A stretch of DNA of 4,510 nt from a virus (taxonomy: Duplodnaviria > Heunggongvirae > Uroviricota > Caudoviricetes): the IMG/VR virus record IMGVR_UViG_2724679238_000010, one strand, 5' to 3'. The notes beneath the pieces were generated by a model. That model did not search any database, was not told the origin of the DNA, and saw only the letters and a list, made by a program, of their open reading frames with translations. Every line of letters starts with the position of its first letter. Positions within the stretch are counted from its first letter, which is position 1. Shown here piece by piece: positions 372 through 4,436 of this stretch. Made by a program: the position numbers and the translations under genes.

Positions 372-1349
372 TTACCCCCTGAACCCCGGAGGAATTTCGG
401 TGTCCGGTTCAGAAATATGATTCACACAACGCTGTACAGGTGAACGCCCCAGGCGGATGACCAGTTCGTCCCATTTTTCGCGGAGCTTTGACGGGCTCAT
501 GATGTTTTTTACCCAGAATGGATCCCGCTGTACCCGCCCAAACATTTCGCAAATTTGTCTGTGAGTTCTGCCATCCAGCATCCGCATTGTGCGCACGTCA
601 TTGGCCCACGCGGTCCAGTTTGGTTCTTTCGGTCGCGTGATCTCGCCATCATCGCTGGCCGCCTGCTCGTAAAGACTCACGATTCGTCCCCAGATCCACT
701 GTGCGCACGCCAAATCTTCCTGACTTCCCCACTGGCGTTTTTTCGCACTGAACACAACCGCATCAGGGTGTCGGGTTAAAAAATCCTGTTCAGCCGTCTG
801 CGGGTCCGGTTGCGAAGCGTCCGGACAAGAAGATCTTTTATCTGATGGATCAGATTTTAATACTGACGGATCGGGGTCAATCATCGCCCCCCTAACCGAC
901 CGTTTTTTATCAACGGTTGATCCATCAAAATTTGACGGGTCAACCGTTGAGGGGGCAATATTTGACGGGTCAACCGTTGAGGGGTCAATATTTGACGGGT
1001 CATTTTTGGCCGGGCTAATTTTTCTTTTCGGTTTATATGCCTCTCGCGCCGCCGCTGCTGCAGCTTCGAGTTTTTCCACATTAAGCCGGTAGATATTGCT
1101 TACGTTACGTCCGCCAACCTTACGCTCTTCCTTTGTCAGCCAGCCGCTCTTTTCCAGTTCCGCTATCGCCGCTTTAACCGTTGATTCACTCTTTGCCCCA
1201 ATCTGACGACGAATGGTCTCTACTGCAGGCCATGACACACCTTCATCATTGCTGTAGTCTGCAAGACGAGCCATCACTGCCACCCTGGATAAGATCATGC
1301 CGGTGAAGGCACACCCTTCCCAGACAAGACCATGAAGCTTGCTGCTCAT
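372..1349 (-). CDS. phage replication initiation protein, lambda O-like (N-terminal winged-HTH domain, repeat-encoded linker, C-terminal domain)
   Basis: 325-aa ORF with ATG at 1347..1349 and a GGGG SD-like run 6 nt upstream. The N-terminal segment (GMILSRVAVMARLADYSNDEGVSWPAVETIRRQIGAKSESTVKAAIAELEKSGWLTKEE) looks like the winged-HTH of phage replication initiators. The middle is a 10-aa peptide repeat (DPSNIDPSTV / DPSNIAPSTV / DPSNFDGSTV) encoded by 30-bp DNA iterons. It lies immediately upstream of the DnaC-like loader gene. Family assignment is from recalled features, not a search. Confidence 0.85.
   Translation of the reverse strand: MSSKLHGLVWEGCAFTGMILSRVAVMARLADYSNDEGVSWPAVETIRRQIGAKSESTVKAAIAELEKSGWLTKEERKVGGRNVSNIYRLNVEKLEAAAAAAREAYKPKRKISPAKNDPSNIDPSTVDPSNIAPSTVDPSNFDGSTVDKKRSVRGAMIDPDPSVLKSDPSDKRSSCPDASQPDPQTAEQDFLTRHPDAVVFSAKKRQWGSQEDLACAQWIWGRIVSLYEQAASDDGEITRPKEPNWTAWANDVRTMRMLDGRTHRQICEMFGRVQRDPFWVKNIMSPSKLREKWDELVIRLGRSPVQRCVNHISEPDTEIPPGFRG
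909..1003. repeat. putative replication origin iterons inside the initiator gene: 30-bp tandem direct repeats with internal dyads
   Basis: Seen directly: 927..956 aaaatttgacgggtcaaccgttgagggggc; 957..986 aatatttgacgggtcaaccgttgaggggtc (28/30 identical); 987..1002 aatatttgacgggtca (truncated third copy). Each unit holds overlapping palindromes TTGAC-GG-GTCAA and TCAAC-C-GTTGA. An inverted relative, TCAACGGTTGA, sits at 910..920. A more AT-rich stretch follows at 1003..1040. The layout resembles lambda ori inside gene O. Confidence 0.6.
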
Positions 1350-2846: not shown

Positions 2847-2999
2847 ATGGATACTATCGATCTTGGCAACAACGAATCTCTGGTGTGCGGCGTGTTCCCA
2901 AACCAAGACGGTACGTTCACCGCAATGACGTATACCAAAAGCAAAACGCTTAAAACCGAATCTGGCGCGCGTCGCTGGTTAGCCAGAAACACTGACTGA
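2847..2999 (+). CDS. small prophage protein, about 50 aa (YdaF/YdfA-like small protein family suspected); alternative start at 2769
   Basis: ATG at 2847 with GAGG (2837..2840) 6 nt upstream. Protein MDTIDLGNNESLVCGVFPNQDGTFTAMTYTKSKTLKTESGARRWLARNTD. Size and position next to the repressor match the small ydaF/ydfA-type genes of Rac/Qin-like prophages. Family assignment is from memory and is tentative. Confidence 0.5.
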   Translation: MDTIDLGNNESLVCGVFPNQDGTFTAMTYTKSKTLKTESGARRWLARNTD

Positions 3000-3376
3000 T
3001 GAGGCTGACGATGGAATTTAAAGATTTACCGTCTGATGTACAGAAAACAGCAGCTCATACATTGCATTCTGTGCTGCGAGAAATCGGGAAAGATATTGCA
3101 AGCGAGCCAGCAAAAGATCTGGCCCGGAAAATCAAGACCGCTTTCGTTGAGCTTTATAATGTTGGCACTGACTCTGAAACTGTCGAGACCAAGACCGTAA
3201 GTTCACCAATATTCTCACTTGAGCCAGGCGTATTATCAGGTGAAATATGCACCGAGATTTCCAGCGAACTGCTTCCGGTAATACGAGAAACAATTTGCCG
3301 TCGCGGTTTGGATGGAAGTTACGATCATGACGTCCTGCAAGTTCTCAGGACAATGGTGACTTCACTGGGGATTTGA
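2999..3376 (+). CDS. hypothetical prophage early protein (125 aa; alternative start 3011 gives 121 aa)
   Basis: ATG 2999 overlaps the TGA stop of the upstream gene by 1 nt (TGATG), suggesting translational coupling. ATG 3011 has its own GAGG SD (3001..3004) 6 nt upstream. No recognisable domain by eye. Confidence 0.55.
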   Translation: MRLTMEFKDLPSDVQKTAAHTLHSVLREIGKDIASEPAKDLARKIKTAFVELYNVGTDSETVETKTVSSPIFSLEPGVLSGEICTEISSELLPVIRETICRRGLDGSYDHDVLQVLRTMVTSLGI

Positions 3377-3545
3377 TCCCTGCGTCCTCTAACCTTTTGA
3401 TATAGCGGTCCTCCAAGAAGCGGTAAATTTTGTCGAAATCATCTTTCCCCTCTGATTTATTCAGAGGATTACAGGACCCGTAAGTAGCGGCATACATTTC
3501 AACCGTTTTATCAAAAATATAAGAGACAAATTCTTCTTTAGTCAT
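3345..3545 (-). CDS. hypothetical small protein, 66 aa, charged and soluble-looking
   Basis: ATG at 3543..3545 (rc) with AAGAAGGA SD (rc of 3553..3560) 7 nt upstream. Protein MTKEEFVSYIFDKTVEMYAATYGSCNPLNKSEGKDDFDKIYRFLEDRYIKRLEDAGIKSPVKSPLS. The track ORF extends to a GTG at 3630..3632, but that start lacks an SD. The 3' end overlaps the convergent gene 2999..3376 by 32 bp. Confidence 0.45.
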   Translation of the reverse strand: MTKEEFVSYIFDKTVEMYAATYGSCNPLNKSEGKDDFDKIYRFLEDRYIKRLEDAGIKSPVKSPLS

Positions 3546-3882
3546 ATAGATTTCCTTCTTGGTTATTCGGGATAAGAAGGATACCACCTCGCCTGACGTG
3601 GTTAAAAGCAGGCACACAACACGAAAGCGCACGGCGAAGTTCGTCTCACTGTACGGTGTCGTTAAATTTAATTCGACCGTGCGCTTCCGGTTGTGGCAAC
3701 CCGCGAAATGGCGCGGCGGTAAGTATGGCGGGGTTATTCCTTCCCCGTTGAGGACACCGGGTTGTCAGGTTGACCATACGCTTAAGTGACAACCCCGCTG
3801 CAACGCCCTATGTTATCAATTTTCTGGTGACGTTTGGCGGTATCAGTTTTACTCCGTGACTGCTCTGCCGCCCTTTTTAAAG

Positions 3883-4030
3883 TGAATTTTGTGATGCGGT
3901 GAATGCGGCTAAGCGCACGCGGAACAGTTAAAACCAAAAACAGTGTTATGGGTGGATTCTCTGTATCCGGCGTTAATTGTTAACTGGTTAACGTCACCTG
4001 GAGGCACCAGGCACCGCATCACAAAATTCA
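3883..4030. repeat. perfect 19-bp inverted repeat pair enclosing 110 bp with GTTAAC dyads
   Basis: 3883..3901 tgaattttgtgatgcggtg is the exact reverse complement of 4012..4030 caccgcatcacaaaattca. The enclosed region holds GTTAAC-TG-GTTAAC (3979..3992) within cgttaa...ttaacg (3971..3993). The right arm ends 5 nt before the SD of the 4048 gene. Confidence 0.7.
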
Positions 4031-4047
4031 TTGTTGAGGACGCGATA

Positions 4048-4236
4048 ATGGAAACGTTATTACCAAACGTTAATACGTCTGAAGGTTGTTTTGAAATTGG
4101 TGTCAGAATCAGTAACTCTGCATTTACTGAAGATGCCATTAACAAGAGAAAACACGAACGGGAGTTATTAAATAAAATATGCATTCTTTCAATGCTGGCA
4201 CGTTTACGCCCGATGCAAAAAGGATGCTGGCAATGA
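4048..4236 (+). CDS. hypothetical small protein, 62 aa
   Basis: ATG 4048 with GAGGA SD (4036..4040) 7 nt upstream. Protein METLLPNVNTSEGCFEIGVRISNSAFTEDAINKRKHERELLNKICILSMLARLRPMQKGCWQ. Its stop TGA (4234..4236) overlaps an in-frame ATG (4233..4235) of the next ORF. The track ORF starts at a GTG (3943) lying inside the inverted-repeat region, which I consider non-coding. Confidence 0.4.
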   Translation: METLLPNVNTSEGCFEIGVRISNSAFTEDAINKRKHERELLNKICILSMLARLRPMQKGCWQ

Positions 4237-4436
4237 ATACAGCAATTGCTCTCACTCTGATAGTTTTTCTTAATACGGGCGAGCCTGTTGACCCGGTTAT
4301 TGACATTTACGGTTCAATGAAAGAATGCACGGCTGCCGCAGCGGAACAGAAAACTCCCGGTAACTGTTATCCGGTCGATAAAGTTATTCATATGGACAAT
4401 AACGAAATCCCGGCAGGACTTAAAACAGCACCGTAA
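4179..4436 (+). CDS. hypothetical small protein with signal-peptide-like or membrane-anchor N-terminus (85 aa; alternative start 4233 gives 67 aa)
   Basis: ORF MHSFNAGTFTPDAKRMLAMNTAIALTLIVFLNTGEPVDPVIDIYGSMKECTAAAAEQKTPGNCYPVDKVIHMDNNEIPAGLKTAP. Basic residues (KR) precede a hydrophobic stretch (AIALTLIVFL), followed by a polar region with two Cys. Start is ambiguous: ATG 4179 has only a distant GGAG; ATG 4233 has AAAAAGG 9 nt upstream and forms an ATGA overlap with the preceding ORF. Confidence 0.45.
   Translation: MHSFNAGTFTPDAKRMLAMNTAIALTLIVFLNTGEPVDPVIDIYGSMKECTAAAAEQKTPGNCYPVDKVIHMDNNEIPAGLKTAP

What the first reader, a model, noticed from the sequence alone, without database searches (positions are those of the whole stretch)
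3883..4030. Perfect 19-bp inverted repeat pair flanking a 110-bp core with GTTAAC dyads, directly upstream of a small gene
A 19/19 reverse-complement match 110 bp apart is very unlikely by chance in 4.5 kb. If transcribed, it would form a long-range stem closing just 5 nt before the SD of the 4048 gene. Alternatively the arms and the central GTTAAC-TG-GTTAAC dyad could be protein-binding sites, or the unit could be a small inserted element. None of the annotated genes explains it.
Basis: seen in the sequence. Interest (0 to 1): 0.5.

Follow-up and report, generated by a model that had tools for sequence, protein, structure and literature searches.

The report
RNase III stalk around dicB-leader RNA
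The perfect inverted repeat is the long closing stem of a folded RNA module between the prophage small RNA DicF and the division-inhibitor gene dicB; it belongs to a widespread but poorly understood prophage RNA family, and the stem is most likely the RNase III cutting site reported for this operon in 1990.

Summary
Arms 3883-3901 and 4012-4030 are 19/19 complementary; shuffles never exceed 15. The window is a Qin-type prophage: DicF sRNA is at 3822-3873 and dicB at 4048-4236.

The arms are the two strands of a 21-bp RNA helix (3881-3901 / 4012-4032) that closes a five-helix junction. The "GTTAAC dyad" is one of its hairpins.

The module is a diverged relative of the prophage sRNA family STnc100/PasD (Rfam 39.1 bits, below the gathering score of 47). 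The helix is kept across genera by many compensatory and G·U changes, so selection acts on the + strand RNA.

Among about 75 family copies the closing stem is usually 6-9 bp. It is 20-27 bp only in a subfamily that lacks a terminator and sits directly before an ORF (dicB, kil, terB and others).

Published work reports an RNase III-dependent 72-nt DicF, 19 nt longer than the terminated form. By arithmetic its 3' end falls inside the left arm.

Most likely the helix is an RNase III processing stalk. Cleavage would separate DicF, a ~128-nt core RNA and the dicB mRNA. The right-arm cut, core release and any effect on dicB are inferred.

The DNA-site, transposon and chance readings are rejected. 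This is a new variant of a known kind, of moderate interest.

The parts
3822..3873 (+). DicF sRNA (context). Terminator stem GGCGG 3836-3840 / CCGCC 3868-3872, followed by U-run 3874-3878.
   Evidence: Rfam RF00039, 76.7 bits, E 2.5e-16; fold.
3881..3901 (+). 5' strand of closing helix P1. The perfect 19-nt arm is 3883-3901; A3881 and G3882 extend it.
   Evidence: 10 of the 21 pairs change on both sides in the 17-member subfamily.
3892..3897 (+). Inferred position of the RNase III cut that makes the published 72-nt DicF (53-nt form plus 19 nt).
   Evidence: Literature statements plus arithmetic from the DicF coordinates. Not mapped here.
3902..3904 (+). Junction AAU. It is part of GGUGAAU, which is near-invariant across the family.
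   Evidence: Conservation over 86 unique copies.
3905..3920 (+). Hairpin P2 (GCGGC-UAAGC-GC-A-CGC).
   Evidence: Family-wide 99.8% paired, with 3 of 5 pairs changed on both sides.
3921..3968 (+). P3: GGA 3921-3923 pairs with UCC 3966-3968. It encloses a variable insert, 3924-3965.
   Evidence: 2 of 3 pairs covary; the insert differs between copies.
3969..3995 (+). Hairpin P4, which holds the GTTAAC-TG-GTTAAC motif. The stem is 3969-3979 / 3985-3995 and includes U.G and G.U pairs.
   Evidence: All 11 pairs change on both sides family-wide.
3997..4011 (+). Hairpin P5 (CCUGG-AGGCA-CCAGG). It is part of the near-invariant block UCACCNGGAGGCACCNGGCACC and abuts P1 directly.
   Evidence: U-A to G-C covariation at the middle pair.
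4012..4032 (+). 3' strand of closing helix P1. The perfect arm is 4012-4030. The staggered RNase III cut is inferred near 4021-4023.
   Evidence: The cut position follows from the 2-nt 3' overhang rule and was not observed.
4036..4040 (+). Shine-Dalgarno GAGGA of dicB. It lies outside the helix.
   Evidence: Read from the sequence; fold.
4048..4236 (+). dicB (62 aa), the gene that the module leads.
   Evidence: Pfam DicB E 1.6e-36; RefSeq annotation of homologous loci.

Best explanation
The two arms are the strands of a 21-bp RNA helix (P1) that forms only in transcripts reading through the DicF terminator into dicB. P1 closes a five-helix junction (P2-P5) whose core is a diverged member of the prophage STnc100/PasD RNA family.

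In this subfamily the family's usual 6-9-bp closing stem has been lengthened to about two helical turns. The module has no terminator of its own and is followed at once by SD + ORF.

The long helix is a substrate for host RNase III. A cut in the left arm gives the published 72-nt DicF. The staggered cut in the right arm (inferred) would leave dicB-ydfD mRNA with a 5'-monophosphate leader of about 26 nt. It would also release a core RNA of about 128 nt with an 8-bp stub, the same stem length as free-standing family members.

The stalk therefore divides one early-left transcript into an sRNA, a structured RNA and a toxin mRNA with separate fates.

Shown here: the repeat, the fold, the covariation, the family link, and the association of the long stem with ORF-leader copies. 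Taken from the literature: an RNase III-dependent 72-nt DicF. Inferred: the exact cut positions, release and stability of the core, and the consequence for dicB expression.
For: - Repeat is real and far beyond chance.
- The MFE and centroid folds pair the arms; z = -4.9.
- Rfam STnc100 aligns over 3871-4080 with its outer stem on the arms (39.1 bits, E 3.9e-6).
- A covariance model built here finds 84 copies at E <= 1e-8 in enterobacterial loci. These include copies that pass Rfam's threshold.
- Subfamily of 17: 95.5% of cells paired against 34-43% with slid partners. 18 pairs change on both sides against 1-8. P1 has 10 of 21 such pairs.
- Family of 83: 92% paired against 38-44%.
- K-12 carries two C-to-U changes that give G.U pairs, and kil-linked copies carry U.G. 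The + strand scores 175.8 bits and the - strand 31.5 bits.
- The closing stem is 20-27 bp only in the 12 copies with strong duplexes. None of these has a terminator and 9 have a called ORF start at 32-53 nt. The other 63 copies mostly have 6-9 bp stems, and 17 have terminators.
- RNase III processing of full-length dicBF mRNA gives a 72-nt DicF (PMC5069750, PMC9438474). Adding 19 nt to the 53-nt form ends at about 3892-3897, inside the arm 3883-3901.
- The helix centre GUG/CAC puts a G-C pair between staggered cuts, which fits the in-vivo rule.
Against: - The primary paper (Faubladier 1990) could not be read. The cut is therefore placed by arithmetic from two secondary accounts, with about +/-3 nt uncertainty.
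- The 2023 study of this operon reports RNase III only at the 5' end of the 190-nt DicF and does not mention a downstream site.
- No data seen here show a right-arm cut, a stable core RNA, or any effect on DicB.
- The match to STnc100 is below Rfam's gathering score.
- The alignments used for pair counts were fitted to the model structure, which favours pairing.
Confidence: 0.65

Rival explanations
1. The helix acts in cis on dicB without needing RNase III. A stable 21-bp stem ending 16 nt before the start codon would set translation efficiency or protect the mRNA 5' region. The RNase III cut would be incidental.
For: The long stem occurs only where an ORF follows within about 10-30 nt of the helix end. 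The SD is left free just outside the helix.
Against: The downstream genes and their SD spacings are diverse, and nothing in the helix pairs with the SD. A perfect two-turn duplex in E. coli is expected to be cut by RNase III, and an RNase III-dependent end is reported there.
Confidence: 0.15
2. The module is simply another trans-acting Hfq-type sRNA of the STnc100/PasD kind. The long stem only shields it from nucleases and has no role for DicF or dicB.
For: Family members are transcribed in EHEC, and one was seen on a Northern blot. EcOnc27 and PasD bind Hfq.
Against: This copy has no terminator or U-tail, which is the usual Hfq module, and no convincing + strand promoter. Stem lengthening tracks the ORF-leader context, not sRNA features.
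Confidence: 0.12
3. It is a DNA-level feature: protein-binding half-sites, a cruciform or recombination site, or a miniature transposon bounded by terminal inverted repeats.
For: There are perfect arms in this window. The unit recurs many times per genome (10,749 places in 4,771 E. coli records). Similarity between phages breaks at its edges.
Against: - Arms differ between copies through compensatory and G.U changes that preserve RNA pairing only on the + strand.
- The flanks CCCTTTTTAA and GTTGAGGACG share no direct repeat.
- Orientation always matches the downstream ORF, and the distance to it is fixed.
- The arms do not resemble the operator palindromes of this immunity region.
Confidence: 0.03

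Closest known systems
STnc100 (Rfam RF02076) and PasD / EcOnc27 prophage sRNAs
   Same: It shares the multi-helix architecture closed by UGYGGUG/CACCRCA and the near-invariant GGUGAAU and CACCNGGAGGCACCNGGCACC blocks. It has the same prophage location, and a graded chain of homologs links it to copies that pass Rfam's threshold.
   Different: It scores below the gathering threshold (39.1 against 47). Hairpin P2 has a different sequence. It has no terminator. The closing stem is 21 bp instead of 6-9 bp. It sits as the leader of an ORF in the early-left operon, not as a free-standing gene at the late 'moron' site.
RNase III processing stalks: rRNA precursor stems, T7 early mRNA sites, the lambda N leader and sib
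   Same: It is a two-turn duplex in a phage polycistronic transcript, with an RNase III-dependent end reported inside it. It lies between cistrons, and cleavage would give separate RNAs (established knowledge of RNase III).
   Different: Here the duplex is long-range and encloses a conserved structured RNA, as in rRNA precursors, rather than being a simple local hairpin. The effect on the downstream gene is unknown.
DicF and the dicBF operon of the K-12 Qin prophage
   Same: It is the same locus. The window is 89.6% identical to K-12 Qin from 3604 onward and 95-98% identical to E. coli genome copies over 3800-4250. The processing literature for that locus applies directly.
   Different: In the papers I could read, the literature treats the dicF-dicB spacer as plain intergenic RNA. 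Its fold and family relationship are not described there.
RNase III-matured sRNAs (CJnc190 of Campylobacter, ManS of Salmonella)
   Same: The proposed release of a structured RNA from a longer transcript by RNase III (abstracts listed).
   Different: There is no sequence relationship, and release is not demonstrated here.

Membership tests
STnc100 (Rfam RF02076) | Reaches the curated gathering score of 47 bits. | tested here: not met
   39.1 bits, E 3.9e-6. The K-12 and kil-linked copies are also not called at the gathering threshold; L027 reaches 47.8.
STnc100 (Rfam RF02076) | Consensus architecture: a closing stem around several hairpins, with the conserved GGUGAAU and CACCGGGAGGCACCCGGCACC blocks. 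| tested here: met
   Rfam alignment; conservation over 86 copies; pair counts of 92% against about 41% with slid partners.
STnc100 (Rfam RF02076) | Continuity with accepted members. | tested here: met
   The model built from the long-stem subfamily retrieves L015, L052, L061 and L086, all of which pass Rfam's gathering threshold.
STnc100 / PasD as stand-alone Hfq-type sRNA genes | Own Rho-independent terminator. | tested here: not met
   There is no terminator-like site after 4032. None of the 12 long-stem copies has one, against 17 of the 63 others.
STnc100 / PasD as stand-alone Hfq-type sRNA genes | Hfq binding and trans targets. | not testable with these tools
   Known only from the literature, for other copies.
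RNase III processing site | About two turns of uninterrupted double-stranded RNA. | tested here: met
   21 bp, of which 19 are perfect Watson-Crick pairs.
RNase III processing site | An RNase III-dependent RNA end mapped within the helix. | tested here: inconclusive
   A 72-nt DicF is reported from RNase III processing. Arithmetic places its end at 3892-3897.
RNase III processing site | The paired positions between staggered cuts include a G-C pair. | tested here: met
   GUG 3891-3893 pairs with CAC 4020-4022 at the helix centre; the rule is from PMC6212723.
Miniature inverted-repeat transposable element | Target-site duplication, with variable insertion sites and orientations. | tested here: not met
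   The flanks share no direct repeat. Copies are always co-oriented with the downstream ORF and lie just upstream of it.
Intrinsic terminator / attenuator | A G+C-rich hairpin followed by a U-run. | tested here: not met
   The right arm is followed by UUGUUGAGGA. The scan finds none.
tRNA-like element | Recognised by a tRNA/tmRNA detector. | tested here: not met
   ARAGORN finds nothing in the window.

The most novel reading that the evidence does not exclude
The enclosed core is not merely a base-pairing sRNA. It would be a conserved five-helix-junction RNA with its own tertiary fold or dedicated partner. Lambdoid and P1-like phages would carry it either as free genes, often in tandem arrays next to tRNA genes, or as RNase III-excised cassettes in front of accessory genes such as dicB, kil and terB. 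That would make it a so far uncharacterised class of phage RNA whose release is timed by read-through of early terminators.
Probability: 0.25. Interest if true: 0.6.

Novelty: new variant of a known kind. Interest (0 to 1): 0.38.

Why it matters
It gives a structural explanation for a 35-year-old observation: RNase III makes a longer DicF from read-through transcripts.

It connects the classic K-12 dicBF locus and the Rac kil leader to a widespread prophage RNA family whose function is still unknown.

It shows that Rfam's threshold misses a whole long-stem, ORF-leader subfamily. That subfamily is present in most of the 4,649 of 5,426 complete E. coli genomes that match this region.

It predicts a specific, easily tested RNA species and a processed dicB mRNA end. 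Both bear on how toxic prophage genes are kept separate from the sRNA transcribed with them.

Tried and rejected
- Chance: rejected by shuffles.
- GTTAAC dyad as a protein site: it is the loop and 3' strand of hairpin P4, whose stem covaries.
- Transposon: there is no target duplication, and orientation is fixed.
- Terminator or attenuator: there is no U-run.
- Internal promoter for dicB: the scan finds only a minus-strand candidate inside the element and a + strand one upstream of DicF. The 2023 study found no extra promoter. An older suggestion (Cam 1988) could not be read.
- tRNA-like element: ARAGORN was negative.
- Leader specific to cell-division inhibitors: rejected, because the same long-stem module precedes TerB, an Ash/Rha regulator, DUF5983-like proteins and unknown proteins.
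- Transcriptome-wide RNase III maps: the main texts cite dicF only as background, and no supplements are held.
- Primary papers Faubladier 1990, Cam 1988, Faubladier 1994 and Murashko 2017 are not held.
- My first motif scan used a wrong left anchor and missed the window's own type. It was corrected.

Full report
**Observation**

The window carries a perfect 19-nt inverted repeat, 3883-3901 and 4012-4030, separated by 110 nt. The 19-mer occurs nowhere else, and 0.01 matches are expected even with three mismatches allowed. In 200 dinucleotide-preserving shuffles, the longest perfect inverted repeat anywhere in the window was 10-15 nt. As RNA the helix extends by A3881-U4032 and G3882.U4031 to 21 bp.

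**Context**

The window is the immunity and early-left region of a Qin-type lambdoid prophage.
- Minus strand: P-like, O-like (with iterons), cII-like and cro/dicC-like genes.
- Plus strand: a dicA-like repressor, operator palindromes and small ORFs.
- DicF sRNA lies at 3822-3873 (Rfam 76.7 bits), with its terminator and U-run ending at 3878.
- dicB lies at 4048-4236 (Pfam DicB, E 1.6e-36).
- From 3604 onward the window is 89.6% identical to K-12 Qin.

The finding is therefore the dicF-dicB spacer. Its + strand is transcribed only when RNA polymerase reads through the DicF terminator.

**What the repeat encloses**

RNA folding of 3815-4060 pairs the arms in both the MFE and centroid structures (z = -4.9). 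The helix closes a junction of four further helices:
- P2, 3905-3920.
- P3, 3921-3923 with 3966-3968, around a variable insert.
- P4, 3969-3995, which contains the GTTAAC pair.
- P5, 3997-4011 (CCUGG-AGGCA-CCAGG), which abuts the 3' strand of P1.

In E-value mode, Rfam aligns family STnc100 (RF02076) to 3871-4080 with its outer stem on the arms. The score is 39.1 bits, below the gathering score of 47.

**Relatives**

BLAST against phages shows that window 3868-4032 recurs as a unit without dicF or dicB.
- It sits about 20 nt upstream of kil in Rac-type and Stx phages.
- It sits upstream of terB in P7 and D6.
- It occurs in a Klebsiella phage.
- Phage Evi has dicF + element + kil.

A motif scan of one genome per species, followed by profile and covariance-model searches, recovered 84 copies at E <= 1e-8 in Escherichia, Shigella, Salmonella, Klebsiella, Enterobacter, Kosakonia, Pantoea, Lelliottia, Scandinavium and others. 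Many are in tandem. Several of these pass Rfam's STnc100 threshold, but the window, K-12 and kil-linked copies do not.

A 2026 preprint describes STnc100 and PasD as related prophage sRNAs of unknown function and does not mention dicB, dicF or kil. Family copies are transcribed in EHEC, and some bind Hfq.

**Selection acts on the RNA**

In the 17-member long-stem subfamily:
- 95.5% of cells form standard pairs, against 34-43% when partners are slid.
- 18 pairs change on both sides, against 1-8 with slid partners.
- P1 alone has 10 of 21 such pairs and is 93% paired.

Lelliottia, for example, has AAAGCAGGUUUUAAGGUGUGGUG pairing with CACCACACCUUAAAGCCUGCUU. K-12 differs from the window by two C-to-U changes that create G.U pairs, and kil-linked copies carry a U.G pair and a bulged A. 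These would be mismatches in DNA or in the minus-strand RNA. The model scores 175.8 bits on the + strand and 31.5 bits on the - strand.

Family-wide (83 distinct copies), 92% of cells are paired against 38-44%. All of P2-P5 and the inner seven pairs of P1 covary; for example, pair 5 of P1 is C-G in 30 copies and U-A in 41. The near-invariant unpaired positions are GGUGAAU, part of the P2 loop, and UCACCNGGAGGCACCNGGCACC. These alignments were fitted to the model, which favours pairing. The slid controls and hand-read examples argue that the signal is real.

**The long stem is a subfamily trait tied to context**

Among about 75 non-redundant copies the closing stem is typically 6-9 bp.
- 12 copies have strong duplexes (dG <= -26), with stems of 20-27 bp in nine. 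None has a terminator, and nine have a called SD + start at 32-53 nt.
- Of the other 63 copies, 17 are followed by a terminator and only 6 by a called start.

The downstream genes are unrelated to one another: DicB, Kil, TerB, an Ash/Rha regulator, DUF5983-like proteins and unknown proteins. The module is therefore a portable leader, not a device specific to division inhibitors.

**Link to RNase III**

Two papers, both citing Faubladier et al. 1990, state two things. The 53-nt DicF ends at the terminator. [quoted passage not shown]

Nineteen nucleotides beyond the 53-nt 3' end (3873-3878) is 3892-3897, inside the left arm. The only predicted duplex that includes these positions is P1.

With the usual 2-nt 3' overhang, a left cut after about 3893 implies a right cut near 4021/4022. 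The two pairs between the cuts would then include a G-C pair, as in the in-vivo rule. The products would be:
- DicF-72.
- A core of about 128 nt (about 3894-4021) with an 8-bp stub, the stem length of free-standing family members.
- dicB-ydfD mRNA with a leader of about 26 nt.

The left-arm cut rests on literature plus arithmetic. I could not read the primary paper. The 2023 study of this operon discusses only the other RNase III site, at the 5' end of the 190-nt DicF. That site maps by the same arithmetic to the separate hairpin at about 3619-3693. The right-arm cut, core release and effects on DicB are inferences.

**Rivals**
- A purely cis-acting role of the helix on dicB translation or stability is possible and not exclusive (0.15).
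- A plain trans-acting sRNA reading fits the family. It does not fit the lack of a terminator and promoter, or the context dependence of stem length (0.12).
- DNA-level readings (protein sites, cruciform, transposon) are contradicted by G.U and compensatory substitutions, the absence of target duplications, and the fixed orientation (0.03).

**Verdict**

The feature is the extended closing helix of an STnc100/PasD-type RNA module that serves as the dicB leader. It is most likely the RNase III stalk behind the long-known 72-nt DicF.

The locus and the family are known. The following are not described in the papers I could search:
- the recognition that the spacer is a family member;
- the long-stem, terminator-less, ORF-leader subfamily;
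- the predicted excised core.

I rate it a new variant of a known kind, with interest 0.38.

Noticed in passing
window 3619-3693: A second long hairpin (arms 3622-3634 / 3677-3689). The 5' end of the published RNase III-dependent 190-nt DicF maps by arithmetic to about 3684-3689, on its 3' side. DicF is therefore bracketed by two RNase III-type helices.
   Followed up: partly
window 2990-3604: This stretch differs from K-12 Qin. ydfB and ydfC are replaced by a 125-aa ORF (2999-3376, +) and a minus-strand ORF (3345-3632, likely ATG near 3545) with a promoter-like site at 3545-3516. It looks like a moron-type insertion.
   Followed up: partly
L001, L004, L007, L040: the 70 nt upstream of the element: kil-linked copies are preceded by a DicF-like terminator hairpin with a different 5' part (UUGCUGUGUGUAGUC-UGGCGG), which Rfam does not call as DicF. 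The same seed-plus-terminator follows an STnc100-type core in L013. This hints that DicF-like sRNAs and these cores are alternating parts of one modular system.
   Followed up: partly
L052 and L079 (Pantoea plasmid pAPP145_2), L121, L115, L076, L128; L015, L052, L002: Family cores occur in tandem arrays of three or more. They also lie next to tRNA genes in a Salmonella diarizonae contig, a Pantoea plasmid and phage P7.
   Followed up: no
L040:3004-3424 (Shigella flexneri): A long-stem copy is followed by an Ash/Rha-type ORF region that also holds isrK and C4 antisense RNAs. That makes three structured RNAs in a row.
   Followed up: no
window 3943-4236: An in-frame GTG-initiated 97-aa ORF extends dicB upstream across P4, P5 and the right arm. 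This part is probably non-coding, in line with the old report of an in-phase internal start for dicB.
   Followed up: no
window 910-1008 and 2109-2128 / 2627-2663: There are 15-nt-phased iterons inside the O-like replication gene. There are also operator-like palindromes (TACCCATAGGTATT / AATACCTATGGGTA) on both sides of the dicA-like repressor gene.
   Followed up: no
phage records MT713136.1 and PP818812.1: 'Aeromonas phage AP1' (98.8% identity) and 'Actinobacillus phage vB_Apl-pPE4' carry near-identical E. coli-type dicF/element/kil DNA. These are odd hosts for this sequence and may reflect contamination or misassignment.
   Followed up: no
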